Virus genome (UHGV): UHGV-0391889
Source: a virus
Strand: one strand, 5' to 3'
DNA length: 39,374 bases
The notes beneath the pieces were generated by a model, which was not told the DNA's origin, did not search any database, and worked only from the letters and a program-made list of their open reading frames with translations. Of this stretch, positions 1-39,374 are shown piece by piece. Within the stretch, counting starts at the first letter, position 1. Each line of letters opens with the position of its first letter. A program made the position numbers and the translations under genes.

Positions 1-68
1 AACGTTTATGAAAATGCAGAAATAACGAGCAAATGGCATCATTCCTGCTTTTGTCAGGGAGATCTACC

Positions 69-623
69 ATGCTTATTGGCTATGTACGCGTATCAACAAA
101 TGACCAGAATACCGATCTACAACGTAATGCGTTGAACTGTGCAGGATGCGAGCTGATTTTTGAAGACAAGATAAGCGGTACAAAGTCCGAAAGGCCGGGA
201 CTGAAAAAACTGCTCAGGACATTATCGGCAGGTGACACTCTGGTTGTCTGGAAGCTGGATCGGCTGGGGCGTAGTATGCGGCATCTGGTCATTCTGGTTG
301 AGGAGTTGCGCGAACGTGGCGTTAATTTTCGCAGCCTGACGGATGCTATTGATACCAGCACACCGATGGGGCGTTTTTTCTTTCATGTGATGGGGGCCCT
401 GGCTGAAATGGAACGAGAACTGATTGTTGAACGAACAAAAGCTGGACTGGAAGCTGCTCGCGCACAGGGACGAATTGGTGGACGTCGTCCCAAACTTACA
501 CCAGAACAATGGGCGCAGGCCGGGCGACTAATTGCATCAGGAGTTCCTCGCCAGAAGGTGGCGATCATTTATGATGTTGGCGTATCGACTTTGTATAAGA
601 AGTTTCCGGTCGGAGATAAATGA
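69..623 (+). CDS. pin: Serine DNA invertase, Pin/Hin/Gin family
   Basis: Translation from the internal Met (MLIGYVRVSTNDQ...) has the resolvase N-terminal catalytic Ser motif and a C-terminal HTH; very close to my recollection of e14 PinE. Track ORF 33-623 trimmed to the conserved start. Confidence 0.9.
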   Translation: MLIGYVRVSTNDQNTDLQRNALNCAGCELIFEDKISGTKSERPGLKKLLRTLSAGDTLVVWKLDRLGRSMRHLVILVEELRERGVNFRSLTDAIDTSTPMGRFFFHVMGALAEMERELIVERTKAGLEAARAQGRIGGRRPKLTPEQWAQAGRLIASGVPRQKVAIIYDVGVSTLYKKFPVGDK

Positions 624-783
624 AACCGTAGCACGTCGTATGCAAGAACGTGCCACGGCTGGCTGATGGACGTTCGATAGCGCGAGTTTGAATGAAAATC
701 AGCCGGAGGTGATTTTACATAATTGTTGCGGAATCATTCAATATAGGGATTGCTTATTTCTGCCTGGATTGGTCTGAAATAGT

Positions 784-1018
784 CCCGAAATTTTCTCTAA
801 AAAACTCGAAAAAAATGGTAACTAATTGAATGCATTAATATGCAATGGTACGTGTTTGGGATTAAAAGATGAGCGTAATTTTGCTTAACAAATTAATTTA
901 AAAAGGGTTTCTTGTTTGTTGACGAAAACAGGAATCGTATTCGGTCTTTTTTTAATTGTATTTAAAATCAATTAGTTGCAAACGTCTCCCCGAAATTACT
1001 CGAAATTTACTCGAATTT
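784..1018. repeat. attP-like region with five arm-type direct repeats, consensus (A/C)nnCGAAAtT
   Basis: Copies at 784-794, 805-814, 988-997, 998-1007 and 1009-1018 in an AT-rich non-coding stretch just beyond the 3' end of int. Confidence 0.45.
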
Positions 1019-1084
1019 CTGTATTCCGGTCTTTTTTGGTTATATCACAACCAAAACACATTTAACAATCCATTTACGTTAAAA

Positions 1085-2161
1085 TCAGAGCAGTAAGTAC
1101 GTTTTTTCTCTCTCATCAAGATACATTTTTGTTGTCTTCTCCGATGTGTGGCCAAGTAGACGTTGAGCAAATTCTTCCCCACATGTTTCTTTGTACAATC
1201 GTCCAGCCAGGCTTCTGATCTCGTGAAAAGTTGGTGGGTTTTCACTGAACTGGATACCTGTTAATTTTCTGGCTGCGACAAATTTCTTTGTCAGGCCGTC
1301 CGGGTGAATGCTGCCGTCAGGGCTGTTTTTTCTAATCCCGGCACTGATTAGATAATCCCCCCTACTTACCATGCGGCACTGTTCAACTACTGTACCAAGT
1401 CGTAAACCAGCGACAGGAAGGCTGAGTGACAGGGGGATAGCAATCATCATTCCTGTCTTAATTTGCCTGATGTGGAGACGATCATCATAAATCTCACTGA
1501 ACCGCATATTTGTTATGTCTTCGCGACGTTGTCCTGTTACAAGGGCTAAGTCCATAGCTAATGGGAACCATGTCGGAAGTTGATCTGCTGCCTCCCTGAT
1601 GCAGTTGTATGTCTTTAGTTTCAGCCGTTCTCTTGTAACTACTATTTTCGGTGCTCTTGTTGGCGTTACTGGATTTTGAGATATACGTCCTTCAACAATG
1701 GCCTCGCGGAACATATCAGATAACACAGAACGCATTGATCCTGCCATCGTGTTTTTCCCTCCTTCAATCCACAAATCAAGAAACTCGGCAATATGGCGAG
1801 TGGTTATTTCTGTCAGTAAAACTCCTCCTAATTTTTCTTTTATTGTCTCCAGTTGATTTACCCGAATTTTATAAGTATTTCTGGACACTTTTCTCCTTAT
1901 AAGAATCGTTTTGTAACGTTCAATCCAGTCTGCCATAGTAAATGAGTCGAACCCTTTTAGTTTTTCAATTAAGGCAGCAGGAGAGTAGTTTTTGTATATA
2001 TAATGATTTGCTTCAATTGCCTGCGCTACTGCATCTCTTCTTGAAATTTTACCTAGTGTAAATTCTTCTTTCGTCAGAGGGTTGCGCCAGTAATATGCTT
2101 TGTCCCTCCTTCGATATGTTAAGTTTTTAGGCAAATTGGGATCGTATTTTTTCCGCTGCAT
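1085..2161 (-). CDS. int: Tyrosine integrase, lambda Int family
   Basis: 358 aa ORF; C-terminus carries the R...HxxR...Y catalytic signature ([16 protein letters not shown]); followed by xis and an attP-like region. Confidence 0.85.
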
Positions 2162-2408
2162 GTTTTAACTTCTCCAGTAACGGACTGTCTCTCCCTTGTC
2201 GCCCATTAGGCTGATGGTGTGTTATATCGGTATCAACCTTATTTGGGTTGATATAGAAAGCTTCCGGAACCACCCTGTAACTCCTCCCGTGTAGTTCAGG
2301 TGCAGGATAAATGTTTCCATTCCTTGCCCATCGTCTCAGCGTTGATATTGATGGTGGGTTATCCGGATATCTGAGTTTTCCCCACGTTTTGAGTGTCACA
2401 AGATTCAT
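2127..2408 (-). CDS. xis: Excisionase (Xis-like DNA-binding protein)
   Basis: Small basic protein overlapping the int start, with the lambda xis-int arrangement; start taken at the third codon, which has an AAGAGG RBS 7 nt upstream. Confidence 0.7.
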   Translation of the reverse strand: MNLVTLKTWGKLRYPDNPPSISTLRRWARNGNIYPAPELHGRSYRVVPEAFYINPNKVDTDITHHQPNGRQGRDSPLLEKLKHAAEKIRSQFA

Positions 2409-2514
2409 TGCCATACCTCTTACGATATGACCGCCAGTAAATATACAGAATACTGGCGGGTGTGGTTGATTTTTAATAATCAGCTATGAAGTTCTAATTT
2501 GTATATAATGCAAC

Positions 2515-2703
2515 TCACGAGGACAGAAGTTTCTCGCAATTAAAATTTATCAGCTTTACTTTCTGCTCTCTGGACACGCCTGCTTCTTTTTTCCCTGAGA
2601 GCATTTTTTCGCATTCTGATTTCGTTAATTTAGATTTTGAATATCTTGTCCAGTTAGTAGGAGTGCCACCTTCTTTTTCAATAGTGGCAGTTATTTTATA
2701 CAT
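2515..2703 (-). CDS. YdaC-like small protein of unknown function
   Basis: Start at MYKITAT with a GGAGG RBS 5 nt upstream; sits between xis and ralR as in Rac. Confidence 0.5.
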   Translation of the reverse strand: MYKITATIEKEGGTPTNWTRYSKSKLTKSECEKMLSGKKEAGVSREQKVKLINFNCEKLLSS

Positions 2704-2890
2704 GAACACCTCCATTATTATTTCCAGTAGTTCGTTTATTCCATCTTTCGAGTGCTTCTTTTTCACTTCCACCATAGCCAGTTCGGGATTCGCATCCGTT
2801 GCATTTTGCCCGGTAATATCCTGAAATTGCTTTCACCGTAACAGATGGACAACCACAAAACGGACATGGTTTAACATCGTCATATCTCAT
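2696..2890 (-). CDS. ralR: RalR (Lar) restriction-alleviation protein, also a type I toxin endonuclease
   Basis: 64 aa from MRYDDVKPCPFCGCPSVTVK..., matching recalled Rac RalR almost exactly; CxxC...CxxC zinc ribbon. Confidence 0.85.
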   Translation of the reverse strand: MRYDDVKPCPFCGCPSVTVKAISGYYRAKCNGCESRTGYGGSEKEALERWNKRTTGNNNGGVHV

Positions 2891-2946
2891 AATTTTTGTC
2901 ATAAAAACTGTCTCACGTTGGCGGTGCATTACACCGCCAGGCTGAA

Positions 2947-3756
2947 TTATTCTTCTGAATTATCGATTACACTGTATTCCCCGGTTAATACAGAGGAGTC
3001 TGCCGGATCGATTGTCAGTGGTTCCTTTTCATCCATTGATACTGCACGCTGGATTTCAATTGAGACAGGCAGGTATTTAAACAGGCGACGAATAGCCGTT
3101 TTTTTTGCCATTTCTTCCCAGTGAGTTACCCATGGCCCGTTATTACCAGCCTTACTCTGGCTGCGCACCAGTTCAATCTGTTTGCGCGTCATAACTTCAA
3201 ACTGAGTCCCTCCGTCTTTCAGTCTTGCGACAGCATAGACGTGGGTCACTGGTGCATCTTCGTTTTCTCCCGGGCGGTGTATTAACTTTTCATCAAGGCC
3301 AAATTCAAAACTAAACTCGTCACCTTCACGGACAACACGGGCTGACAGGCTGGCGATTTGACCAGAACGGCGAGCCAGATCAATCATGCCGCGATAACCA
3401 ATGATTAGCTGAACGTTCTTTTTACCGCTCTTTTCGTTTTTATTACCAAAAGGCAGTAAATATGCGTGGCCGAGGGCGCTACCTGGCTCAAGGCCGAGCT
3501 GTGAACACTGAACGATCGCACTGACAAAACTCATGGTGTCACAGTTTCCTAGCGCCGGAACCTTACGAATTTCTGTGGTGGCGATACGTATCATTCGTTC
3601 AGCCGTCATATGGCGTGGGAGAGCTGCTGCCAGTTGCTCTTTCATTGATGGCTGATTAATAAAGCTGATCACGTCGTTATTTTTTACTGCTGCTGGTGCA
3701 CGGTTTCCCTGGGTTTTTTGCAGATCGGCTTTTGCGATAGGTGGTTGCTTAGTCAT
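2947..3756 (-). CDS. recT: RecT single-strand annealing recombinase
   Basis: 269 aa from [16 protein letters not shown]..., matching recalled E. coli Rac RecT; AAGGAG RBS upstream; track ORF trimmed to this start. Confidence 0.95.
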
Positions 3757-6382
3757 TTGCATACTCCTTAGCCCAGCGGGGCAGTGATAACGTTTTAATA
3801 GCTGGCCATTCATCGGTATTCAGGCAGTCAGCCAGGGTCCTCAGATTGCGGTGATATTCCTGCTGGCCTGCCAGTTTTGCTTCTTCGCCCATCATGAAAA
3901 TCTCAACCGGGTAACGTCCGCATTCAACAGTTGTGCTGGCAACCAGAAAAACGAAAGTTGGCAGCACGCCAAACTGTGCTTCATAACCGTCACTGTAGAA
4001 TGCATCCTGAACGTGATAGCGGTAGTCGTAATAAGCCGTTTTGAATCGTTGAATATCCGCTGTGGTTTTCACGTCCATGATCCAGTGAAATTCAGGAATA
4101 ATTTTGTCCGGACGGCACCGACACAAAATTCCTGTTTCCGGATCTTCCCAGTAAATTGATGATTCAGCGTGTCCGGCGCTTTCAACAAGCCATTGCCCCA
4201 GCGGCAAAGCCATAACGCTTTGATACATGAGTTCAATTTTCCGGCCTTCTTCCGCAGTGATAACCGTTTTTCCTGTGCTTGCGCATTCCATCAGAAACGC
4301 TTTCTCTTCTTCTTTTCCGGCGTTTGTACGGCGGTTAAATTCAGGTGCTACGATAAAGCGGTTACTGAATTCTTCCGGTTCAAGTACCCGGCAGTGGAAA
4401 GCGGTTCCTAAATCGAGCGTTTTTGTCTTTGTAGTGTCCACGGGGGCATTTTTACGCCACAAATACAGTGCCGGAGTATCAGCAATGTCATCGAGCTGAG
4501 ACTTACTGACACCGGGACCCGCGTGGTAATTCTCATTCGAAATTCCGTAATAAATACCTGGCTCTATGTCTTCTACGATTACGGGATCTGCGACTTCGCC
4601 AGTTTCATCACTGCAATCGCGATGCGGATCGCTGCCAGCATTCTCATTGTGCGGATGTTCAGCGCCTTCCATTTCCTCCGGATCTTTTTCCTTAGCTTCA
4701 ACCTGATTCTCTTCACCGAATGTTTCCTGGTATGTTGCGTCGCCCATCACCGCACCACAGTCAGGGCAGTTATCCCCGCCAGTCTGACCGCAGGCATTGC
4801 AGACTATTTCCGGTTCCTGTTGCACTACTGGCTCAGGTTGTTTCGCATCCGGGCTGATTTTTTCCGTTTCTGGCTGGTTCTGGTACACAGAATCGCGAGT
4901 CTGGATCCCCTTAACCCATTTCGGATCGTTCGGGTCGCTAATCCCTTCAACAAATTCTCCGCGAGAGGCAGCCAGTAATTTGTCTGCATCGACAGGATTT
5001 TTGGGCGGAATGTTTTTCCGGGCTTCATGGAGTTCTGCCCGCAGTTTCTGATATTTCGCATCAACAGAATTTACCTGTGACTGAGCATCCAGCGACTGCG
5101 TGTCCTGATGATGTTCAGTTGCATCCGGTTCCACTGTTTCAGCCGTTGCCTGTTCATCTGCCATTGCGCAAGATGGTTGCAGTTTTTCTTCATCATCCTG
5201 TTTTTCTTCTTCTGTTACACGCTGCGGCATCGGGGCAGAGGAACGACCGCAGGCAATATCCACGATTTCTGGATCAGGGTTGGCATGATCAGTTTCAGTC
5301 AGTACTTTGTTCAGATATTCAGTGACGTGTGCGGGGATAACCTCGATCCCAATTGGTGCTTCTTTTACGGACGCAACCACGATGGCGCGGGAATAATCCA
5401 GCCCACCAGGCATGGTGATGAATTTGTCGCGGAAAACAGAAAAGGGTGGTTTATTTTCAGCGATAATTTCCTCGACACGTTTAGCGTGTGCCGGATGAAG
5501 GTTATAAATGTCCACGTCCATTGAACGAGCCAGTACGCCAGTGGCTACGTCGCGCGCCAGTGACGTCAGATCGTGAACGAAACCTTCGCCGCGATCGGTG
5601 AGGTTCCCGCCGCCAGCATTAGCGCCGGAAGCCGTGCGCGTGATGCGTGAAACACGATTTCCTTTCATCCACTCTTTTGTCAGCAGACCGCGATCGGTGT
5701 AGTCTGCGTCCAGGTATGCTTCGAAAAAAGCAGTCATCAGCCCCAGGCTTGAATTGCCTGGATTAGGGAAAACTCTGTCAGTATCACGCACCAGTTTGTG
5801 GAGATCGCGAATTTCCAGCGGGTCGAGCAGGCTGGTTTTGTGGGAAACAGCCAGGGCAGTAACAGCTGGTAGTTCTTCAGCTCGTGCAATGTGTAATGCC
5901 TGTAGTTCGTCGCGTGAAACGTGCGTTACCGGTTTTTCGCTGCCGTGTTGAGCAAGCCAGCGAATGGGCAGCTCCTGACCGGAAATCGGGAGTAGCATAT
6001 TCTCCTCAATCTCCGTCATGTCTTCGCCATTAACATTGGTATTGTCAGTGCTGGCTGGTTTGTCCTGCGCAGAGGATGAGGGCGCGATAAATACCATTGT
6101 GATGCCATCTTCCCCGCCTTTTTCGTAACGGTTGCAGAATTCCGTATCAAATACGCCTTCTGGTGGAAGGTCATCAACAACGGGCAAATTGACGCGAACA
6201 GGTTTTTTAAAGTCATCTTCATCGTAGCCAGCATCGTCAATCGCAACAGCACCACGGGAGATGGCAATGGATAATTTTTTCGCTTCAGCCCAGTAAAAAC
6301 CGCCTTTAATACCGAGACGTTTTCTTACTTTGTCATTTTTTGCTTCGTAATACAGTGGGTAAACTTGTTTATCGGTGCTCAT
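3749..6382 (-). CDS. recE: RecE exonuclease VIII
   Basis: 877 aa; the C-terminal ~750 aa match recalled Rac RecE ([27 protein letters not shown]...[10 protein letters not shown]); the N-terminal ~100 aa look divergent. Confidence 0.9.
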
Positions 6383-6482
6383 TGTTTTTTAACCTCAACT
6401 CAGATTAAAATTCGTTTGTTCAGTGAATAATCTTGCCGGATACACACTGTTCATAGCCTGCGCCATACGCAGGCTATTTCTT

Positions 6483-6758
6483 TCAGATTTCACCTTTTAA
6501 TTTCATTGCAATCAGAGTTGCCAGAAATTCGGCTTTTTTTTCTGCGGGCAGATTCTTTCCGATATGCACCAGGCACATTTTTTTGACGCCTTCGTTAAGT
6601 GTTTTAACGTTGCCTGATGGACCGTCGATATCAACCACAGTGAAAGGGGTTTCTTTATTTTCTGTTTTAATCACGTAGCCAATACGCTTTCCTTCCAGGC
6701 TGACTTCGTGAACAATGTCATCAGTAGTAACAACAGTGGCTTCATAACTGGTAATCAT
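6483..6758 (-). CDS. racC: RacC-like protein
   Basis: 91 aa from MITSYEATVVTTDDIVHEV..., matching recalled Rac RacC; track ORF trimmed. Confidence 0.8.
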   Translation of the reverse strand: MITSYEATVVTTDDIVHEVSLEGKRIGYVIKTENKETPFTVVDIDGPSGNVKTLNEGVKKMCLVHIGKNLPAEKKAEFLATLIAMKLKGEI

Positions 6759-6832
6759 GTTTTTCTCCTTAATTAAGGTTGAGCGAATCCCTGCCATTGC
6801 TGGCATAAATTCAGTTTCGGATAGTCAGTTAA

Positions 6833-7003
6833 TTAAAGTTCGTGTGCCATCTGGTCTTTTTCGGCACAATTTTCACTACAATATTTTTTCATTTCCGTCG
6901 TTGGGATAACTCCACGCATGAAATGAAGTGGTCTTTTAATGCTTTTGCTTTCTTCAATTCCTTTATTGCAAAGGTGGTAAGCACATTTTATTTTCTTAGT
7001 CAT
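6833..7003 (-). CDS. YdaE-like small zinc-ribbon protein (56 aa)
   Basis: Hand translation of the minus strand gives [56 protein letters not shown]; below the 60 aa cutoff so absent from the track; same position as ydaE in Rac. Confidence 0.55.
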   Translation of the reverse strand: MTKKIKCAYHLCNKGIEESKSIKRPLHFMRGVIPTTEMKKYCSENCAEKDQMAHEL

Positions 7004-7224
7004 CACCATGACTCCGCCTTTACAGGTAAACCATCACGACCGAGGAAGACTTTAATCATGCAGTCAGAAATGCATGTTTTTGTAGTCAGGTTACGAATAT
7101 AAAGTTTTCGCTTTTTAATATTGTTTGCCGAGGCGATATATGTCCGACCTTCATGAAGAACATAATCGCCAGGAGTCACACACTGACGTGGTATTTCATC
7201 AGTTCCGAAGTGATGAGCAATCAT
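7003..7224 (-). CDS. kilR: KilR-like FtsZ-targeting cell-division inhibitor
   Basis: 73 aa from [29 protein letters not shown]..., close to recalled Rac KilR. Confidence 0.85.
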
Positions 7225-7559
7225 AATTATCTCCATTTTTACAAATGAATTTTGTCGATGCGGTGCCTGGTGCCTCCAGGTGACGTTAACCAGTTAACAA
7301 TTAACGCCGGATACAGAGAATCCACCCATAACACTGTTTTTAGCTTTAACTGTTCCGCGTGCGCTTAGCCGCATTCACCGCATCACAAAATTCACTTTAA
7401 AAAGGGCGGACATCAGCCAAACTTCAAGAAAAAACTGATGCCGCCAGGACTACACACAGCAATGTCGTTATTTACAACCGGAGGCGCACTCCCACCATTT
7501 AAATTTAACAGACAAGACCGACTCTTTATGGATACCGGAAATGCGCCTTCGTGTTGTGC

Positions 7560-7600
7560 GCCTGTCTTTTTACCACTTCAGGCTCGGTGGTATACTGGAG
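7560..7600 (+). promoter_or_regulatory. Candidate promoter with extended -10 (TGGTATACT)
   Basis: TGG at 7588-7590 plus TATACT at 7591-7596, about 35 nt upstream of the ORF starting at 7631. Confidence 0.35.
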
Positions 7601-7630
7601 TTCTCACACAACCAGTAATAAGGTATTCCT

Positions 7631-7825
7631 ATGGATAATAAAGACAAAGCCTGGCTACTTGCTTTAGCTTTCAGCATCAGATCGCAGCGAGAAACAACTC
7701 ATCAAGAATTTTTCTCGGAAATCGAGAATGCTGAGAATGAGTTTTTGTCATTACTCAATGAACGTGATGCTAAAAAAAGCGCCGATTCACTTAAGGCTTG
7801 GGCGAAACTAGGCTCTTCAAAATAA
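7631..7825 (+). CDS. Hypothetical small protein (64 aa)
   Basis: ORF directly downstream of the extended -10 promoter; no recognisable family; weak RBS. Confidence 0.3.
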   Translation: MDNKDKAWLLALAFSIRSQRETTHQEFFSEIENAENEFLSLLNERDAKKSADSLKAWAKLGSSK

Positions 7826-8009
7826 TTGCTTCTGTAGCGGCATGAACAACTGTTTTTGCCGCCTCTTCAACTTCCTTGTCTGGACGACCAGCCTTTACTT
7901 TTTCTGCAATGACCTCCAGCACAGTTGGAAGAACCTTGCTAATAAGCATGGCTGCCACATCTTTGCTGCACAATTGACCGTTAATAACAACCAGATCTTC
8001 ACCAACCAT
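7791..8009 (-). CDS. Hypothetical protein (72 aa from MVGEDLVV...)
   Basis: Internal ATG with an AAGGGGA RBS 7 nt upstream; lies downstream of the repressor gene; no family assignment. Confidence 0.4.
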   Translation of the reverse strand: MVGEDLVVINGQLCSKDVAAMLISKVLPTVLEVIAEKVKAGRPDKEVEEAAKTVVHAATEAIILKSLVSPKP

Positions 8010-8254
8010 CTTTTTTCCCCTTAACGCCGGGTGGCGGAACGTTTTATCTACTGCGCTTTGTATCAATCAACAACTGCCGTCATGTTCGTATGCCTCAGGC
8101 TGGCTACTTAGCCCTGTTCAGTGGCTGGATAACTCGAGGTATTGTCCAGCCGTTCTCTGGTGGGGCGTTGTTTGGATATGGCAAATGCTCACATATCGTG
8201 AGTGATTTGTCAACTCAATATGTGAGCACTGTTGTTTTTGGATTTTTGATGGAC

Positions 8255-8288
8255 AAAAAAAGCCCTCGCTAATAGCGAGAGCTTTTTG
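8255..8288. terminator. Bidirectional rho-independent terminator
   Basis: Stem AGCCCTCGCT / AGCGAGAGCT with an A-run on one side and a T-run on the other, just downstream of the repressor stop. Confidence 0.5.
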
Positions 8289-8313
8289 ATTGGAATCGAG
8301 GGAGATTAAAGGT

Positions 8314-8703
8314 TTAGGAGGATTTTTTCTGTTGCCTGCTTCTTAGATATTTTTCCACATACTCATCAAGCTCTTGAAGACGGATTTCGAACAGATCAAT
8401 CATGCGTGCTTGTTCTGATCCCGGGAGCTGATTAAACAGCTCTAGCATTTTTTTCTGGTTATCATTTAACCATGAGTACGTGTTTTCCTGTTCACCGAAC
8501 ATTAATTCTGCGGGGGAAATGCCTAGTACTTGGCCGAGGATGATCGCATCCTCAGCCCCCACACTCCTGGTGCCAGCTTCGTAGTTAGCAATACGAGAAG
8601 AACCTGACCAACCACATAGTTTTGCCAGGTTTCCCATACTTAATCCTCGATTTAGGCGAGTGGCTTTTAGGCGCTCGCCTATTTGTTCTGCAATCGTTTT
8701 CAT
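8314..8703 (-). CDS. CI-like phage repressor, HTH XRE family
   Basis: 129 aa from MKTIAEQIGERLK...; HTH segment LSMGNLAKLCGWSGSSRIANYE; divergent from a Cro-like gene; the longer track ORF 8314-8808 would run across the operator region. Confidence 0.8.
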   Translation of the reverse strand: MKTIAEQIGERLKATRLNRGLSMGNLAKLCGWSGSSRIANYEAGTRSVGAEDAIILGQVLGISPAELMFGEQENTYSWLNDNQKKMLELFNQLPGSEQARMIDLFEIRLQELDEYVEKYLRSRQQKKSS

Positions 8704-8797
8704 AGTTCCGATTTTATCACGATGTGTGAAATTGGCGGTACTCACGTATCTGTAGTTGATCTCGCTCACGAAATGTGAATAATAGAGACAGGAGGTA
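8704..8797. promoter_or_regulatory. Divergent immunity-region promoters with three operator-like TCAC-N5-GTGA sites
   Basis: TCACgatgtGTGA at 8717-8729, TCACgtatcTGTA at 8742-8754, TCACgaaatGTGA at 8766-8778, spaced about 24-25 bp, between the repressor and cro-like starts. Confidence 0.55.
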
Positions 8798-9043
8798 ATG
8801 ATGAACAAAATTTCAACATATCGAAAACAGCTTGGGTTGTCTCAAAGACAACTTGCTGTTCAGTTAGGGTGGATACAAAGCCGACTGGCAAATTACGAAG
8901 CAAATTTTCGTACTCCTGGGCTAGAAGAGTGCAGAAAAATTGTTTCCACCCTTAATCGGCTTGGTGCTCATTGTGGACTTGACGATGTATTCCCCCCAGA
9001 CGGTAAGCATAGCGAAAACAGCATAGGAGCGGTTGATTCATGA
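8798..9043 (+). CDS. Cro/YdaS-like HTH regulator
   Basis: 81 aa with HTH (LGLSQRQLAVQLGWIQSRLANYE); GGAGG RBS; divergent from the repressor. Confidence 0.7.
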   Translation: MMNKISTYRKQLGLSQRQLAVQLGWIQSRLANYEANFRTPGLEECRKIVSTLNRLGAHCGLDDVFPPDGKHSENSIGAVDS

Positions 9044-9462
9044 AAATCAGGCATGAGCATATCGAATCAGTGTTGTTGGCCCTGGCAGCCGAAAAAGGGC
9101 AGGCGTGGGTCGCTAACGCAATTACTGAAGAATATCTGCGCCAGGGGGGCGGCGAATTGCCCCTTGTACCAGGCAAGGACTGGAACAATCAGCAGAATAT
9201 CTATCACCGTTGGTTGAAAGGTGAAACGAAAGCGCAAAGGGAAAAAATTCAGAAACTGATCCCTGCGGTTCTGGCAATTCTTCCGCGCGAGCTGCGTCAC
9301 CGACTCTGTATCTTCGATACCCTGGAACGCCGTGCATTACTGGCGGCGCAGGAAGCGTTGAGTACGGCAATTGATGCGCATGATGATGCAGTCCAGGCCG
9401 TTTACCGGAAAGCACATTTCAGCGGTGGTGGGTCGCCCGGCGATTCTGTCGTAGTGCATTGA
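9040..9462 (+). CDS. ydaT: YdaT-like protein (CII-like regulator / reported toxin)
   Basis: 140 aa, near-identical to recalled Rac YdaT (MKI.HEHIESVL.ALAAEKGQAWVANAITEEYLRQGGGELPLVPGKDW...). Confidence 0.8.
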   Translation: MKIRHEHIESVLLALAAEKGQAWVANAITEEYLRQGGGELPLVPGKDWNNQQNIYHRWLKGETKAQREKIQKLIPAVLAILPRELRHRLCIFDTLERRALLAAQEALSTAIDAHDDAVQAVYRKAHFSGGGSPGDSVVVH

Positions 9463-9507
9463 TTGAAATTAATCGTGCCGGATTGTTTTGTTCGGTATCA
9501 GTTAAAT

Positions 9508-13740: not shown

Positions 13741-14106
13741 ATGGCACTGACGAAAAAACAACGTGCAGAGCTGCGCATGAAGTTCGGCGGTCGCTGTGCT
13801 TATTGTGGCTGCGAACTTGGCGAAAAGTGGCATGTAGACCATGTAAAACCGGTCATTCGTTTTGCTGGAAATATGCTTCACCAGGAACGTGACGATATAT
13901 CCAACATGGTTCCGGCATGCCACCCATGCAATCTGCACAAGCATTGCAGCAGCCTGGAAGATTATCGGCGAATTATCAGTGATGGTCGTCGTGAATTCCT
14001 TGCGTCCGGGAAAGGCAAGGCGCTGGTTCGTATGGGATTGGTTGAAATGAAATCTGACCCGGTTGTGTTCTGGTTTGAAAAATATCAAGAAGGGGCTACA
14101 GCATGA
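13741..14106 (+). CDS. HNH endonuclease
   Basis: 121 aa from MALTKKQRAELR...; HNH signature CAYCGCEL...HVDHVKP...N...ACHPCNLHK. Confidence 0.8.
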   Translation: MALTKKQRAELRMKFGGRCAYCGCELGEKWHVDHVKPVIRFAGNMLHQERDDISNMVPACHPCNLHKHCSSLEDYRRIISDGRREFLASGKGKALVRMGLVEMKSDPVVFWFEKYQEGATA

Positions 14107-14597
14107 CCACTTTTACCGACAAAGAACTGATTAAAGAAATCAAAGAGCGCATCAGCAGCCTGGACGTGCGAGACAATATTGAGCGCCGGGCTTATGAGAT
14201 TGCACAGGCATCTCTGGTAGCAGAGCCAGTGGCATATCAGTATCGCCAGTGGGATGCAGAATATGATGAATGGGGAGAATGGGAAGATTGCGGGGAAAGT
14301 GCTTTCGAAAGATTTGTTGAGGAAGAGAAATGCCTGGGGGCAGGTGTTCAGACCCGTAAGCTTTACACCGCCCCTCCAGTGCATCAACCCGGTGGATTTA
14401 CAATTGAGGAAACACAAGAACTTTACGAAGACTTGGTTCGAAGCCACATAAGCCAAGCTTTAAGTGGCGAAAAGATGAAAAAGAAAGATCGCGATGCTGA
14501 TTTACGCTGGATTCATGGCGTTATAGTTCAGGCTGCGTGGTTTGTGAAAGCATCACTGGAAGCGTTGCCTGAACCACCGCAGGAGGTGAATCAATGA
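14103..14597 (+). CDS. Hypothetical protein
   Basis: 164 aa ORF, coupled to the HNH gene; acidic, Trp-rich central region. Confidence 0.55.
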   Translation: MTTFTDKELIKEIKERISSLDVRDNIERRAYEIAQASLVAEPVAYQYRQWDAEYDEWGEWEDCGESAFERFVEEEKCLGAGVQTRKLYTAPPVHQPGGFTIEETQELYEDLVRSHISQALSGEKMKKKDRDADLRWIHGVIVQAAWFVKASLEALPEPPQEVNQ

Positions 14598-14677
14598 CCT
14601 GGCCTGAAGCATTCACAACGGTAGGAATTGCGATGGCGGTGGCGCTGGTGGTGTATTCGATTTTCCGATGGGGATAA
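14594..14677 (+). CDS. Candidate 27-aa hydrophobic peptide
   Basis: MTWPEAFTTVGIAMAVALVVYSIFRWG; AGGAGGTGA RBS 5 nt upstream; ATG overlaps the upstream stop. Confidence 0.35.
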   Translation: MTWPEAFTTVGIAMAVALVVYSIFRWG

Positions 14678-14769
14678 AAACGGTTTGCGGGAAAAGGAGA
14701 GTTAAGTAGAATTGCTGCGGGTGCTTGAGGCTATCTGCCTCGGGCATGAACACCAACGGCAGATAGAGA

Positions 14770-14838
14770 AAAGCCCCAGTTAACATTACGCGTCCGGCAA
14801 GACGCTTAACATTAATCTGAGGCCATATCTATGCGACA
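14770..14838 (-). ncRNA. Candidate Sok-like antisense RNA
   Basis: Minus-strand promoter-like TTGACC (14868-14873) and TAATCT (14844-14849) with 18 nt spacing, facing into the hok leader; minus-strand hairpin then T-run near 14770. Positions approximate. Confidence 0.3.
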
Positions 14839-14890
14839 CATAGAGATTAGCCTCTTACGGACCGAAAGGTCAAGGAGAAGCAGGCTATGA
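14831..14890 (+). CDS. Mok-like leader ORF (19 aa)
   Basis: Short ORF whose stop overlaps the hok start (ATGA). Confidence 0.4.
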   Translation: MRHIEISLLRTERSRRSRL

Positions 14891-15042
14891 AGCAGCAAAA
14901 GGCGATGTTAATCGCCCTGATCGTCATCTGTTTAACCGTCATAGTGACGGCACTGGTAACGAGGAAAGACCTCTGCGAGGTACGAATCCGAACCGGCCAG
15001 ACGGAGGTCGCTGTCTTCACAGCTTACGAACCTGAGGAGTAA
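14887..15042 (+). CDS. hok: Hok/Gef family type I toxin (HokD/RelF-like)
   Basis: 51 aa MKQQKAMLIALIVICLTVIVTALVTRKDLCEVRIRTGQTEVAVFTAYEPEE: N-terminal TM helix and conserved Cys, as recalled for E. coli HokD. Confidence 0.85.
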   Translation: MKQQKAMLIALIVICLTVIVTALVTRKDLCEVRIRTGQTEVAVFTAYEPEE

Positions 15043-15111
15043 GAGACCAGGCGAGGGAGAAATCCCTCGCCACCTCTGATGTGTCAGGCATCCTCAACGC
15101 ACCCGCACTTA

Positions 15112-15132
15112 ACCCGCTTCGGCGGGTTTTTT
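15112..15132 (+). terminator. Rho-independent terminator after hok
   Basis: CCCGC-ttcg-GCGGG followed by TTTTTT; a second hairpin (GGCGAGGGA/TCCCTCGCC, 15046-15070) lies directly after the stop. Confidence 0.6.
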
Positions 15133-15317
15133 GTTGCGCGCTGAATACGCAGGGTGAAAAATAACCATATATTTGATTATATACACAACAAAAAATAAAA
15201 GTCATTGTACCTGCACATTAAACAATCAAATATACGGCGTGAAATAAATATTTTTCAGATTAATATTTTTGTCTCTATGTGGATATAACCGTTTGTACTT
15301 ATAAACCTGGAGGCATC

Positions 15318-15530
15318 GTGGAAAAAATAAAGAAACTATTTAGTAGCAAATATGCAGTCATACGTCGTGATGACCTGTCAGTTATAGTCGAAATGGATTA
15401 CTTCCCTGAAACAAAAAAATCAATGATGTATCGTAATGGTCGAAAGGCAATTTTTTTACCGATGAGGGTAAGTGACATTATGGGAAATGATAAACTGCAG
15501 GATGAATTGCGAGTCAGAGCATCCTGTTAG
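15318..15530 (+). CDS. Hypothetical small protein in an AT-rich island (GTG start)
   Basis: GGAGG RBS 4 nt upstream of a GTG; sits in a markedly AT-rich segment (about 15140-15320). Confidence 0.35.
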   Translation: MEKIKKLFSSKYAVIRRDDLSVIVEMDYFPETKKSMMYRNGRKAIFLPMRVSDIMGNDKLQDELRVRASC

Positions 15531-15545
15531 TATTGGCATTAATTC

Positions 15546-15554
15546 TGGTATACT
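15546..15554 (+). promoter_or_regulatory. Extended -10 element TGGTATACT upstream of the nin-like operon
   Basis: Same TGGTATACT motif as at 7588-7596, about 48 nt upstream of the 15602 start. Confidence 0.3.
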
Positions 15555-15601
15555 ACATAACGGGCTGAACACCCATTCTACTGCGCCAGCGGAGAACTAC
15601 G

Positions 15602-16201
15602 ATGGCGCATATACAACTGGTCAAACAAACCTCTTCTGGATTACTTCTCCCGGCGACGCCGGAGAGTTGCGATTTTTTGCATCAAATCAAAATAGGTGAG
15701 TGGATACACGCGGACTTTAAGCGAGTACGTAACTACGCGTTCCACAAGCGTTTTTTCAAACTCCTGCAACTGGGATTCGATTACTGGACTCCGAACGGTG
15801 GGGCGATCACGCCTCGCGAACGAGAACTGGTGTCCGGTTTCGTTGATTTCCTGTGCGAATCAGTAGGTCGGGAACATACGCCAGCCCTGAGTGATGCCGC
15901 AGAGCAATACCTTAACACCGTTGCGACTTGCAGAACCCGGGATACGGCCTTACTCAAGTCCTTTGACGCTTTTCGCGAATGGGTAACCATTCAGGCCGGA
16001 TTTTACACCGAACATTTTTATCCGGACGGTAGTCGTGGGCGCAGGGCAAAATCTATCGCATTTGCGAACATGGACGAAACCGAGTTTCAGCAGGTTTATA
16101 AATCTGTACTTAATGTGCTGTGGAACTGGATCCTGTTCCGTAAATTTTCCTCTCCGGAGGAAGTCGAAAATGTGGCCGCGCAGTTACTGGAGTTTGCGTA
16201 A
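15602..16201 (+). CDS. Nin-region protein, YdfU-like (DUF1367-type)
   Basis: 199 aa ORF with a GGAGAA RBS; position and recalled family membership. Confidence 0.6.
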   Translation: MAHIQLVKQTSSGLLLPATPESCDFLHQIKIGEWIHADFKRVRNYAFHKRFFKLLQLGFDYWTPNGGAITPRERELVSGFVDFLCESVGREHTPALSDAAEQYLNTVATCRTRDTALLKSFDAFREWVTIQAGFYTEHFYPDGSRGRRAKSIAFANMDETEFQQVYKSVLNVLWNWILFRKFSSPEEVENVAAQLLEFA

Positions 16202-16491
16202 TGGTGGATTTACGTAAAGCGGCGCGGGGGCAGATGTGCACCGTCAGAATTCCTGGCTACTGCAATCACAATCCCGAAACTTCTGTGCTGGCGCATTACA
16301 GGCTGGCGGGGACGTGCGGAACAGCGACAAAACCACACGATATGCAGGCAGCGATTGCCTGTAGCTCATGCCACGATTTAATCGACGGGAGAGTAAAAAC
16401 CAGCGATTACACCAAAGAAGAATTACGCCTGATGCATGCAGAAGGTGTTTTTCGCACACAAGAAATCTGGAGAAAGGAGGGATATTTATGA
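16201..16491 (+). CDS. Small Cys/His-rich nin-region protein (DUF1364-like, putative zinc-binding)
   Basis: 96 aa with a C..C...H...C.C...C..CH pattern; coupled to both neighbours. Confidence 0.55.
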   Translation: MVDLRKAARGQMCTVRIPGYCNHNPETSVLAHYRLAGTCGTATKPHDMQAAIACSSCHDLIDGRVKTSDYTKEELRLMHAEGVFRTQEIWRKEGYL

Positions 16492-17042
16492 TTTACCCAA
16501 CGAATACAGGCAAAAGCGGGGAACACCTTCGTCTCACCACGCTGGAAAGTGTCTGGATTCAGGGAAAACTGCGCATGTGGGGGCGCTGGTCGTATATTGG
16601 CGGCGGTAAGACGGGAAATATGTTTAACCAGTTGCTGGCATCCAAAAAATTGACGAAAACAGCCGTCAATGAAGCCCTGCGCAGGATGAAAAAAGCGGGA
16701 ATAGAGAAACCTGAGCTGGAAGCGTTTTTGCGAGAGATGATCAATGGCAAGCAAAAGACCTGGCTGGCGCATTGTACTGATGCAGAGGCGTTATGTATTG
16801 ATAGAGTCATAAGTGAGGTGCTAGCAGAGCATCCTGGATTGATTAGTGTCCTCCGGCAACGGTATGAAGGGAGGGGGATGACTAAGCGAAAAATGGCTGA
16901 ATTGCTGAATGATTCACACCCTGAGTGGTGTTTTCGGACGTGCTGCAGTCGGGTAGATGTATGGCTAAATCTTGCTGAATATATGCTCTATCTACCGATG
17001 CGTGATGCATTCTCTTCCGGGGATCTAAAAACCGTCTGTTGA
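16488..17042 (+). CDS. Q-like late-gene antiterminator
   Basis: 184 aa from MIYPTNTG with an AGGAGGG RBS; last gene before a strong promoter plus terminator and the lysis cassette. Confidence 0.6.
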   Translation: MIYPTNTGKSGEHLRLTTLESVWIQGKLRMWGRWSYIGGGKTGNMFNQLLASKKLTKTAVNEALRRMKKAGIEKPELEAFLREMINGKQKTWLAHCTDAEALCIDRVISEVLAEHPGLISVLRQRYEGRGMTKRKMAELLNDSHPEWCFRTCCSRVDVWLNLAEYMLYLPMRDAFSSGDLKTVC

Positions 17043-17068
17043 CTCAATCTGTTATCCGGGGCTATATT
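17039..17068 (+). promoter_or_regulatory. pR'-like late promoter
   Basis: TTGACT at 17039-17044, 18-nt spacer, TATATT at 17063-17068; overlaps the Q stop codon. Confidence 0.5.
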
Positions 17069-17128
17069 CCTCACGCGCCAGCAAAATCTGGCGTCGGGAT
17101 TGGAACCCCGGATAGAGACCGCGACAGA

Positions 17129-17152
17129 CACACGCCGCGAGCGTGTTTTTTA
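17129..17152 (+). terminator. tR'-like rho-independent terminator
   Basis: ACACGC-cgcga-GCGTGT followed by TTTTTT, about 60 nt downstream of the candidate late promoter. Confidence 0.6.
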
Positions 17153-17312
17153 TTGTCGTATGCACGCGCACATCTGAATTATGGTGGGGCGCATGGGGGA
17201 GCTGAAAAGCTCGCCGGTCGGTTTCCCGGTAGTTCCAACCCTGTGCGTCTCACCACCCGATGATTGGAACCTGACGGTGGTGATAGTTTAGAAACCACCA
17301 GAGGGCGTCATT

Positions 17313-17870
17313 ATGACAACTCAAATTTCTGTTGAAACTCTCTCCCCGATCACCCATAACCGGATTCCTGTTATTACCACCGAACTTTTGGCGCAGCTTT
17401 ACGGCACTGAGCCGGTGCGTATTCGCCAGAATCATCATGAGAACAAAGTACGCTTCGTTGAAGGGAAACACTTTTTCAAAGTTGTTGGTAATGACCTTAA
17501 AGAATTGCGGGTAGCTTTAAACTACTCACAAAATCCCATCTCTCCCAAAGCCCGCTCCCTTATCCTCTGGACAGAACGCGGAGCAGCCCGCCACGCAAAA
17601 ATGCTCGAAACCGATCAGGCGTGGGATGTGTTCGAAAAACTGGAAGACTGCTATTTCAGTCAAAAGGATCCGTCAACGCCAGTTTCATGCCAGAAAAGTT
17701 ACGACACGCGAGTTCTCTGTTATCAGCGAGGCGGTGTCACTGTTTCCACAATTCAGTTACGGGATGATGATATTGTTATTTCCCTTGAGTCATGGCTGGA
17801 ACTGGCGAGAGCCAATGGTTGGTTTGTTGTTCGCAGAGATAAACTGGTGGAAAGGTTGATGCAGCTTTAA
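17313..17870 (+). CDS. ORF6N-domain protein (antirepressor-like / KilA-N-related)
   Basis: 185 aa; N-terminal region resembles the ORF6N fold as recalled; GAGGG RBS. Confidence 0.55.
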   Translation: MTTQISVETLSPITHNRIPVITTELLAQLYGTEPVRIRQNHHENKVRFVEGKHFFKVVGNDLKELRVALNYSQNPISPKARSLILWTERGAARHAKMLETDQAWDVFEKLEDCYFSQKDPSTPVSCQKSYDTRVLCYQRGGVTVSTIQLRDDDIVISLESWLELARANGWFVVRRDKLVERLMQL

Positions 17871-17966
17871 AAAAGTTCTTGCATTTTTGCACATAAACTG
17901 CTTCAATTCCGGTACGCTTCGCAAAGCTGTATCGCGAGGCGAATCAAGCGCATGAACTTTACCAGA

Positions 17967-17994
17967 ACCCGCCATTGAGCGGGTTTTGTTGTTT
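17967..17994 (+). terminator. Rho-independent terminator
   Basis: ACCCGC-cattga-GCGGGT followed by TTTGTTGTTT. Confidence 0.45.
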
Positions 17995-18217
17995 CTGACG
18001 GATAGAAAAATGAAATAGCTAAATAAAAAGAATGCATTGGATGCCATATATTGGCAACGTGACGACAGCGTTAATCTGGTCGGGCTCCCATGGCGACGTA
18101 GTGAGGGAGAGGAAGCGTAAAGCATCACTGAGTTACGGTTGGCACCCGGTTTAACGCGTAAGTGGCCTGATAAAGAGATAGTGCGCCGCGGCACTCACAG
18201 CGGCAACGATTAACTGA

Positions 18218-38359: not shown

Positions 38360-39036
38360 GCAAATACACCGAACTAATCACGAACTACCACGCCACCAAA
38401 CCTAAATTTCTTGCGCATGTTGATCTGATGACCCGGCCACTTATTGATGTTGCGGCTGCCACCAGAGGGCTGATTACTGCATTTGATATTGACTCTGCGG
38501 TTGGTGTGCAACTTGACATTCTGGGATTGTGGATCGGACGTAGCCGTGTTGTCAGCCAGCCTATCTCAGGTGTCTATTTCAGCTGGGATACCGACGGGCT
38601 TGGATATGATCAGGGGGTATGGCAGGGACCATACGATCCTGATTCAGGATACATGTATCTCAGCGATGAAACTTATCGTGTCATTCTTAAAGCGAAGATT
38701 GCGATTAATAACTGGGACGGACGGAATGATTCGCTTCCGGCAATTCTTGACGCGGCAACAGCAGGATCCGGGCTGCGAATGCAGATAGTCGATAACCAGG
38801 ACATGACGATATCGGTCTGGGTCTTTCCTGATACTGATATTTCAGATGTATCGCGTGAGTTAATTGCGGCAATTAAACAGGGGTATCTAACAGTAAAAGC
38901 CGCCGGGGTATGGGCGGGGGGCATTGAAACACCTTCGGTGGAAACTCCATCGGAAGGCTCTAAATTTTTTGGTTTTGACATGGATAACGAATTCATCAGT
39001 GGTTTTGATGTAGGGGCATGGGGAGTATTACTCTGA
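38356..39036 (+). CDS. Baseplate / tail protein I-like (DUF2313-type)
   Basis: 226 aa immediately upstream of the tail fibre gene. Confidence 0.7.
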   Translation: MSKYTELITNYHATKPKFLAHVDLMTRPLIDVAAATRGLITAFDIDSAVGVQLDILGLWIGRSRVVSQPISGVYFSWDTDGLGYDQGVWQGPYDPDSGYMYLSDETYRVILKAKIAINNWDGRNDSLPAILDAATAGSGLRMQIVDNQDMTISVWVFPDTDISDVSRELIAAIKQGYLTVKAAGVWAGGIETPSVETPSEGSKFFGFDMDNEFISGFDVGAWGVLL

Positions 39037-39374
39037 TGGCGAAAAATGACTTTAAAGCGTTTGCAACTGATCGAAATGCCAATGTTATGTCGCAGGAGGA
39101 ATGGGAAGCGTTGCCTGCGCTTATATCCGGATTTACAGCAGGGAAAGCATCCAGTGCGCAAGTCAATAAGGTTATTCGGCAGGCCAGCTTTATTGCTGCA
39201 GCTCTGGCCCAGTTTGTAAGTGATAAAACGCAACGGGATGTGCTTGATAATGGTGATCTGCCCGGTTTTGTTGAATTGCTGGGATCGGGGTTTGCTGTTG
39301 AATACCTGAGCCGCAAGAATCCGTTTGGTGATATCAAATCGGATGGCACGGTGAAAACGGCTCTCGAAAACCTT
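39036..39374 (+). CDS. Tail fibre protein, N-terminal part (runs off the window)
   Basis: ATG overlaps the upstream stop; MAKNDFKAFATDRNANVMSQEEWEALPALISGFTAGKASSAQVNK resembles the conserved N-terminus of side tail fibre proteins. Confidence 0.7.
   Translation, partial: MAKNDFKAFATDRNANVMSQEEWEALPALISGFTAGKASSAQVNKVIRQASFIAAALAQFVSDKTQRDVLDNGDLPGFVELLGSGFAVEYLSRKNPFGDIKSDGTVKTALENL

What the first reader, a model, noticed from the sequence alone, without database searches (positions are those of the whole stretch)
1..2414. Invertase, attP-like region and integrase are adjacent, implying a circularly permuted full phage genome
An integrated prophage normally has int at one end and the tail-fibre/invertase block at the other, separated by host DNA. 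Here pin is only about 460 bp from the int 3' end, the interval carries arm-type repeats typical of attP, and the far end of the window stops in a tail fibre gene. The window therefore most likely represents an excised or virion-form genome, or a tandem or circular replicon, rather than a host-flanked prophage.
Basis: inference. Interest (0 to 1): 0.45.

Follow-up and report, generated by a model that had tools for sequence, protein, structure and literature searches.

The report
Phage contig in attP form
The window is an ordinary E. coli temperate phage assembled in its non-integrated (attP) arrangement; it starts and stops at the two recombination sites of its invertible tail-fibre segment, so about 1.8 kb of the genome is missing.

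Summary

The gap is a real attP. A 32-bp core (923-954; identical crossover stretch ACAGGAATCGT, 928-938) is shared with the K-12 attB, which is the 3' end of the sRNA gene sdsR/ryeB between pphA and yebY. The same core sits in attL and attR of single lysogens. Five arm-type repeats flank it in a 2+3 layout.

The window maps as a circular permutation of a host-flanked prophage (strain AVS0790).

Both window termini lie at the central dinucleotide of the two e14-type Pin crossover sites. The window is therefore the phage genome minus its 1.8-1.9 kb invertible segment, about 95% of roughly 41 kb, and not a full genome. Independent assemblies of the same phage break at the same base, so the ends are assembly breaks.

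An intact attP is rare in complete E. coli genomes (5 of 597 that carry the module). The two examined are tandem prophage arrays. Excised or virion DNA versus a tandem array cannot be settled without reads; I favour the former.

Everything here is a known kind of feature, so interest is low.

The parts
1..14 (.). Central dinucleotide plus outer half-site (AA CGTTTATGAAAA) of the pin-proximal Pin crossover site. The inner half-site and the invertible segment are missing.
   Evidence: Matches e14 (K-12) CCTTCTCCCAAACC|AACGTTTATGAAAATG just upstream of pinE, and the same site in L001, L016 and L038.
69..623 (+). pin, a serine DNA invertase of 184 aa.
   Evidence: Pfam Resolvase (E 9e-52) and HTH_7. 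176 of 184 residues identical to K-12 PinE. The exact protein is seen on at least 1000 contigs.
618..695 (+). Hairpin just after the pin stop, followed by a 65-bp element conserved downstream of tail-fibre genes in lambda and Stx phages. Probably a terminator region. The shared att/int module begins near 631.
   Evidence: Sub-threshold Rfam CssrB hairpin at 618-657. Window 631-695 matches lambda and Stx phage records at 85-91%. Module breakpoints at 616/631.
624..922 (.). attP arm on the pin side (P arm), with two arm-type repeats at 784-792 and 805-813.
   Evidence: Contiguous with attR in lysogens: 90% identity to 300709 and 99.8% to AVS0790. Repeats.
923..954 (.). attP common core of 32 bp. 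The strand exchange is inferred to fall within ACAGGAATCGT (928-938). The core corresponds to the 3' terminator of the host sRNA gene sdsR/ryeB and lies inside ryeA.
   Evidence: Four-way alignment of attP, attB, attL and attR. K-12 annotation of sdsR and ryeA. Sub-threshold Rfam hits to SdsR_RyeB and SraC_RyeA. The attL hybrid keeps the terminator hairpin at -15.8 kcal/mol.
955..1084 (.). attP arm on the int side (P' arm), with three arm-type repeats at 989-997, 999-1007 and 1010-1018.
   Evidence: 99.6% identical to attL of 300709. Repeats.
1085..2161 (-). int, a lambda-type tyrosine integrase of 358 aa, intact.
   Evidence: Pfam Arm-DNA-bind_1, Phage_int_M and Phage_integrase. The gene is 100% identical at nucleotide level to int of lysogen 300709.
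2127..2414 (-). xis, the excisionase. The ORF is 95 aa; relatives are annotated from the ATG at 2408, giving 93 aa.
   Evidence: Pfam PF07825 Exc, E 6.5e-14. Annotated as excisionase in H1, H2 and H6.
39036..39374 (+). Constant N-terminal part of the tail-fibre gene (113 codons), cut off at the crossover site.
   Evidence: Colinear with the tail protein gene of L001 at 17796-18134. It follows the baseplate J and DUF2612 genes.
39361..39374 (.). Outer half-site plus central dinucleotide (CTCTCGAAAACC TT) of the distal Pin crossover site.
   Evidence: Same as e14 GGCTCTCGAAAACCTT|GGTTTGGGAGAAGG inside stfP/ycfK and as L001 and L038. Contigs L025 and L027 end at the identical base.

Best explanation
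The window is an assembly contig of a temperate E. coli phage of about 41 kb. The phage has a Rac-like lambdoid early region and a SEN34 / vB_EcoM-606R2-like contractile-tail module. The contig shows the phage in its non-integrated (attP) arrangement.

How integration works (inferred from the anatomy): Int, helped by arm-type sites laid out 2+3 as I recall for lambda (from memory, not checked here), recombines the attP core at 923-954 with the 3' end of the host sRNA gene sdsR/ryeB, between pphA and yebY. Integration places int next to yebY and pin next to pphA. The phage-borne copy of the core rebuilds the sdsR terminator in attL.

Why the contig has these ends: it is opened at the Pin-invertible tail-fibre segment. 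Its termini are the outer half-sites of the two e14-type crossover sites. The intervening 1.8-1.9 kb segment was not assembled, most simply because both orientations were present in the sequenced DNA.

Source of the DNA: because the contig runs through attP without a fork, I infer that attP junctions outnumbered attL and attR junctions. That points to excised, replicating or virion DNA rather than a single integrated prophage.

Shown here: the attP identity, the circular permutation, the missing segment, and the recurrent break point. Inferred: the cause of the break and the physical form of the DNA.
For: - attP, attB, attL and attR share the core with clean arm swaps.
- The window maps to the AVS0790 prophage as 923-39374, then a 1814-bp gap, then 1-954.
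- Both window termini match the e14 crossover sites exactly.
- The segment occurs in opposite orientations in 12089 and AVS0790, and in L016.
- Independent contigs of the same phage break at this site. L025 is an isolate draft. L027 is a Logan contig, 100% identical to the window. Both end at the same base as the window.
- L024, from a different strain, ends 13 nt later, exactly where the two orientations would diverge.
- Both Pin orientations coexist in clonal cultures of K-12 carrying e14 (PMC4272514).
- The attP junction is reproducible. It is 454/454 identical in the complete genome of strain 12089. An independent metagenome contig, L016, is 99.2% identical over 5.7 kb.
- int is intact.
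- The ryeA/ryeB locus is a published phage attachment site in Salmonella (PMC7380047).
Against: - No reads, coverage or assembly graph are available, so the physical form of the DNA is not observed.
- In complete E. coli genomes, the intact attP junctions examined lie inside tandem prophage arrays.
- The break lies exactly at the central dinucleotide, not after a shared inner half-site as in L024. That requires this strain's two inner half-sites to differ at their first base, or a third recombination partner. I could not check this.
- The argument that the contig shows no fork at the core assumes a de Bruijn graph assembler, and I do not know which assembler was used.
Confidence: 0.6

Rival explanations
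1. Tandem prophage array. Two phages using the same attB sit head to tail at sdsR (attL - prophage 1 - attP - prophage 2 - attR). The window would then run from pin of copy 1 across the internal attP into copy 2.
For: Five of 597 complete genomes carrying this att module have an intact attP. The two examined are tandem arrays. Strain 12089 has the structure yebY - attL - a window-like prophage - pin - attP - a second lambdoid prophage. Strain 6817 has an nleC-carrying lambdoid prophage - attP - int. The other three (93.2% identity, also O157-like) match over the same window span. Tandem integration at a shared attB is documented (PMC8112680).
Against: A collapsed array of two near-identical copies should fork at the core in a graph assembly, yet the window runs straight through it. 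In strain 12089 the second prophage has a different late region, whereas the window's late region matches that of the first prophage. Tandem arrays are rare, under 1% of genomes carrying the module.
Confidence: 0.3
2. Assembly mis-join. A single integrated prophage whose attR-side and attL-side contigs were wrongly joined through the repeated core.
For: The core is duplicated at attL and attR in every lysogen.
Against: Exact identity between attL and attR runs only 11, 8 and 6 bp, because of two core polymorphisms. That is shorter than usual k-mer sizes. The same junction exists in a complete genome at 100% identity and in an independent metagenome contig.
Confidence: 0.05
3. A stable circular replicon or a deletion derivative in which the two window ends are directly joined, that is, a phage that has lost the invertible segment.
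For: None directly. Only that the window ends sit at recombination sites.
Against: The sites are in inverted orientation, which gives inversion and not deletion. A direct join would fuse the tail-fibre gene to out-of-context sequence, with a stop about 43 codons later (read). There is no terminal overlap indicating a circular contig. No plasmid-maintenance family appears among the Pfam hits listed for the called genes. 597 of 5426 complete genomes match this att region, 870 of 872 matched places lie on chromosomes, and in all but five genomes attP is split into attL and attR parts.
Confidence: 0.03

Closest known systems
Phage lambda attP / Int / Xis integration module
   Same: A tyrosine integrase with an N-terminal arm-binding domain. 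xis overlaps the start of int. int is transcribed toward attP. There are three arm-type repeats on the int side and two on the far side of a short core. The result is attL and attR in lysogens.
   Different: The core and attB are different: the 3' end of sdsR/ryeB rather than the gal-bio site. The arm-site consensus is different (C[CT]CGAAWWW). Binding sites for IHF, Xis and Fis were not examined. Nothing was tested biochemically.
Salmonella phage PhiW104 integration into the ryeA/ryeB sRNA locus (Balbontin et al. 2008, as summarised in PMC7380047)
   Same: The attachment site lies in the last ~23-31 bp of ryeB (sdsR) and inside ryeA. The phage supplies a replacement 3' end for the sRNA.
   Different: The host here is E. 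coli, and the phage backbone is different. I did not compare the sequence with PhiW104. Effects on RyeA and SdsR expression were not tested.
e14 Pin / invertible P segment (also Mu Gin/G, P1 Cin/C, Salmonella Hin)
   Same: Pin is 95.7% identical to K-12 PinE. The outer half-sites and central dinucleotides are identical to the e14 sites. In relatives the segment is ~1.8 kb and carries alternative tail-fibre C-termini and assembly genes.
   Different: In the window only the outer half-sites are present; the segment itself is absent. Here the system belongs to an apparently intact phage, not a cryptic remnant.
Tandem prophages at a shared attB (Nakamura et al. 2021, PMC8112680)
   Same: An internal attP junction between neighbouring prophages, as in strains 12089 and 6817.
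   Different: The window shows no second prophage and no host flank, so membership cannot be shown.
Escherichia phages vB_EcoM-606R2 / 611R5 and Salmonella phage SEN34
   Same: The terminase-to-baseplate module is 97% identical (E. coli phages) and 82% identical (SEN34) over 65-73% of window 14400-39374.
   Different: These phages have different early regions and integration modules. The 611R5 record ends in host genes yfhH, pgpC and tadA.

Membership tests
Lambda-type attP/Int/Xis site-specific integration module | Tyrosine recombinase with catalytic domain and arm-type DNA-binding domain | tested here: met
   PF00589, PF22022 and PF09003 are all above their curated cut-offs.
Lambda-type attP/Int/Xis site-specific integration module | Core sequence shared between attP and a bacterial attB, with recombinant attL and attR in lysogens | tested here: met
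   The 32-bp core at 923-954 is 29/32 identical to the K-12 attB. Arms are swapped cleanly in 300709 and AVS0790.
Lambda-type attP/Int/Xis site-specific integration module | Arm-type repeats on both sides of the core | tested here: met
   Five same-strand copies of C[CT]CGAAWWW lie within 235 bp, in a 2+3 layout, where about 0.04 are expected by chance. Binding by Int was not tested.
Lambda-type attP/Int/Xis site-specific integration module | Adjacent excisionase | tested here: met
   PF07825 Exc. The ORF overlaps the 5' end of int.
Lambda-type attP/Int/Xis site-specific integration module | Recombination activity (integration and excision) | not testable with these tools
   Supported only indirectly, by 592 complete genomes that carry the module split into attL and attR.
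Pin/Gin/Hin/Cin DNA inversion system | Small serine recombinase (resolvase domain plus C-terminal HTH) | tested here: met
   PF00239 and PF02796. 176/184 residues identical to PinE.
Pin/Gin/Hin/Cin DNA inversion system | Two inverted 26-bp crossover sites flanking an invertible segment next to the invertase gene | tested here: inconclusive
   The window holds only the two outer half-sites and central dinucleotides (1-14 and 39361-39374). Complete sites and the 1814-1866 bp segment are seen in relatives L001, L038 and e14.
Pin/Gin/Hin/Cin DNA inversion system | Segment found in both orientations | tested here: met
   Orientations are opposite in 12089 versus AVS0790 and L016. This was shown in relatives, not in the window's own sample.
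Pin/Gin/Hin/Cin DNA inversion system | Fis-dependent enhancer inside the 5' part of the invertase gene | not tested
   Not examined.
Tandem prophage array | attL - prophage - attP - prophage - attR with host flanks | not testable with these tools
   The window ends at contig breaks, so no flanks are available. Examples were seen in strains 12089 and 6817.
Excised / virion phage DNA | attP junction reads and phage coverage exceeding host junctions and host coverage | not testable with these tools
   Needs reads from the source sample. The contigs 100% identical to the window come from ERR8081709 and SAMN18354210.

The most novel reading that the evidence does not exclude
Three independent assemblies of this phage strain break exactly at the central dinucleotide of the Pin sites, not after a shared inner half-site. 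This could mean that more than two recombination partners exist in the cell or sample. One possibility is a multi-site, shufflon-like tail-fibre segment. Another is Pin acting in trans between this phage and identical e14-type sites of other prophages, exchanging tail-fibre cassettes between prophages.
Probability: 0.12. Interest if true: 0.4.

Novelty: already known. Interest (0 to 1): 0.15.

Why it matters
The main value is for annotation and quality control.

- The contig should be labelled as a near-complete temperate phage (about 95%) in attP form, with a defined attB at the 3' end of sdsR/ryeB. It is neither a host-flanked prophage nor a complete genome.
- It is a clean example of an invertible tail-fibre segment fragmenting phage assemblies at base-pair-precise positions. 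Completeness tools and host-range prediction would miss the receptor-binding cassettes because of this.
- If reads confirm an excess of attP, the phage was actively excised or released in the sampled community.

None of this changes current understanding of these systems.

Tried and rejected
- Exact 46-mer across the attP junction: no hit in IMG/VR and none in GTDB representative genomes. The only hit was metagenome contig L016. The window's own record was therefore not found.
- Looking for the source contig through rare proteins: this found contigs 100% identical to the window (ERR8081709 Logan contigs; scaffold_317 of SAMN18354210), but none of 39374 bp.
- Reaching the int-side end of scaffold_317 through the 107-aa repressor-like protein: this failed because the protein is too common, and only long host-flanked contigs were returned. 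By arithmetic, that end should lie at window ~884. That equals 939 minus 55, which is what a k=55 SPAdes edge would give if the graph forked at the A/G core polymorphism. This is suggestive only, because the sequence was not seen.
- The nearest phage records, vB_EcoM-606R2 and 611R5, were checked as possible virion-form references for pin-attP-int. They carry a different integration module and host genes at the record end, so they are uninformative.
- The idea that the ends mark a circular contig was rejected: there is no terminal overlap.
- The idea of Pin-mediated deletion was rejected: the sites are in inverted orientation.

Full report
**Observation**

The stated features are present.
- pin occupies 69-623 (+). 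It is 184 aa with Resolvase and HTH_7 domains.
- int occupies 1085-2161 (-). It is 358 aa with the lambda-type arm-binding domain, the central domain and the catalytic domain.
- An excisionase ORF overlaps the start of int at 2127-2414 (-).
- The gap between the pin stop and the int stop is 461 bp.
- The window ends at codon 113 of a tail-fibre gene that starts at 39036, directly after the baseplate J and DUF2612 genes.

**The interval is a real attP**

I compared window 561-1150 with three references: the empty site of K-12, and both prophage ends of a single lysogen, strain 300709.
- A 32-bp stretch (923-954) is common to all four sequences.
- Left of it, the window follows the pin-side end of the prophage (attR). 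Right of it, the window follows the int-side end (attL, 99.6% identity).
- Two polymorphisms inside the core place the strand exchange within ACAGGAATCGT (928-938).
- In K-12 the core is the last ~31 nt of the sRNA gene sdsR (ryeB). It lies inside the antisense gene ryeA, between pphA and yebY.
- Rfam gives sub-threshold SdsR_RyeB and SraC_RyeA hits over the core.
- The attL hybrid keeps the sdsR terminator hairpin at the same predicted stability, -15.8 kcal/mol. The attP sequence itself does not form it.
- The motif C[CT]CGAAWWW is not enriched in the window as a whole. However, five of its nine copies lie on one strand within 784-1018, two on the pin side and three on the int side of the core. 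As I recall it, this is the lambda layout; that comparison rests on memory and was not checked here.
- The ryeA/ryeB locus is already published as a phage attachment site in Salmonella (PMC7380047).

**Permutation relative to an integrated prophage**

In the single lysogen AVS0790, oriented yebY to pphA:
- Window 923-39374 aligns colinearly from attL to the tail-fibre gene, with the usual mosaic substitutions.
- A stretch of 1814 bp absent from the window follows.
- Window 1-954 then aligns at 99.8% up to attR.
- The 11-bp crossover sequence occurs twice in that prophage, 42.5 kb apart, and once in the window.

The missing stretch is the Pin-invertible tail-fibre segment, and the window termini sit exactly at its crossover sites.
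- In relatives and in the classical e14 element of K-12, the distal site reads CTCTCGAAAACC TT GGTTTGGGAGAA. It lies inside the tail-fibre gene.
- The pin-proximal site reads TTCTCCCAAACC AA CGTTTATGAAAA.
- The window ends ...CTCTCGAAAACCTT and begins AACGTTTATGAAAA....
- Pin is 176/184 identical to K-12 PinE.
- The absent segment is 1866 bp in strain 12089 and 1814 bp in AVS0790. The two are in opposite orientations. Metagenome contig L016 also shows the AVS0790 orientation.
- The window therefore holds about 95% of a genome of roughly 41.2 kb. It lacks the variable tail-fibre ends and the tail-fibre assembly genes, so it is not a full genome.

**The termini are assembly breaks**

Other assemblies of the same phage stop at the same place.
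- An NCBI isolate draft contig (L025, 99.84% identical) ends at the identical base.
- A Logan contig from ERR8081709 (L027, 100% identical) also ends at the identical base.
- A scaffold from SAMN18354210 (L026, 100% identical) ends 11 nt earlier.
- A scaffold of a more distant strain (L024) ends 13 nt later, exactly at the end of the inner half-site shared by the two orientations.

Coexisting orientations of the e14 segment in clonal cultures are documented (PMC4272514). The simplest reading is a graph fork caused by mixed orientation. Breaking right at the central dinucleotide would require this strain's inner half-sites to differ at their first base. I could not check this.

**Physical form of the source DNA**

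- Among 5426 complete E. coli genomes, 597 match this att region, and only five have it intact as attP.
- Strain 12089 (attP 454/454 identical to the window) has this structure: yebY - attL - a window-like prophage - invertible segment - pin - attP - a second lambdoid prophage.
- Four O157-like strains match over the same span. In the one I examined, strain 6817, an nleC-carrying lambdoid prophage is followed by attP and int.
- A tandem array is therefore a real alternative, and it is a documented phenomenon (PMC8112680).
- Against it: a collapsed pair of near-identical prophages should fork at the core, yet the window runs through it. The downstream prophage in 12089 also has a different late region.
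- A mis-join through the core is unlikely. Exact identity between attL and attR is at most 11 bp. The same junction also recurs in a complete genome and in independent metagenome contig L016 (99.2% over 5.7 kb).
- A stable plasmid form or a deletion derivative is unsupported.

My estimates are about 0.6 for excised, replicating or virion DNA, 0.3 for a tandem array, and the remainder for artefacts. Only reads can decide.

**Comparison with known systems and verdict**

- The integration module behaves like lambda Int/Xis/attP and meets every sequence-level criterion I could test.
- The attachment locus matches the published ryeA/ryeB site.
- The inversion system is the e14 Pin system.
- The structural module is that of vB_EcoM-606R2 and SEN34-like myoviruses.
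- The early region is Rac-like, with recET, kilR and ydaT (the homologous regions of relatives).

Nothing here is a new kind of feature. Its interpretation is right about topology and wrong about completeness.

Noticed in passing
L001 21086-22164 and L014 14222-15300 (E. coli 12089, NZ_CP159875.1): Both int copies of the tandem prophage array are 1079 bp instead of 1077 bp, each with two gaps and no mismatches against the window's int. Both are therefore frameshifted, and the array may be locked in place. The change is possibly the same two-base insertion, but I did not compare the two copies directly. The cause could be gene conversion or an assembly effect.
   Followed up: partly
L018 (PP818812.1, 'Actinobacillus phage vB_Apl-pPE4') 9001-10531: A record labelled as an Actinobacillus pleuropneumoniae phage carries this E. 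coli attP/int module at 96% identity. It also matches 3.4 kb of the window (14594-17997) at 92%. The host label looks doubtful. It does show tail-fibre genes, then attP, then int contiguous in a phage record.
   Followed up: partly
window 631-695: A 65-bp element just after pin is conserved at 85-91% identity downstream of tail-fibre genes in lambda (about 24.17 kb on its map), lambda imm21 and many Stx phages. It overlaps inverted repeats at 654-667 and 698-711. It is possibly a late-operon terminator, or a sib-like element facing int.
   Followed up: no
window 854-957: The sub-threshold Rfam hits to SraC_RyeA and SdsR_RyeB extend about 70 nt beyond the core into the phage P arm. This hints that the phage carries a diverged remnant of the sRNA locus and not only the core.
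   Followed up: no
window 14103-14597 (+): This 164-aa ORF is the sole member of its 90%-identity cluster among about 15 billion proteins. It was seen on only one other contig (scaffold_317). Its function is unknown.
   Followed up: no
L019/L026 (ERZ28599971 scaffold_317, 38480 bp): This metagenome scaffold is 99.98-100% identical to the window. By coordinate arithmetic its int-side end falls at window ~884, exactly 55 nt left of the A/G core polymorphism at 939. A k=55 graph fork at the att core would give this. That would imply two att forms coexisting in that sample. The sequence itself was not retrieved.
   Followed up: partly
window 2500-9500: The early region is Rac-like, with recT, recE, kilR, ydaE and ydaT-family genes; relatives also carry ralR here. 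It is combined with a different integrase from the K-12 Rac type: 358 aa at sdsR, versus the 411-aa integrase at ttcA seen in L030, L033 and L034. This is a clear mosaic module swap.
   Followed up: no
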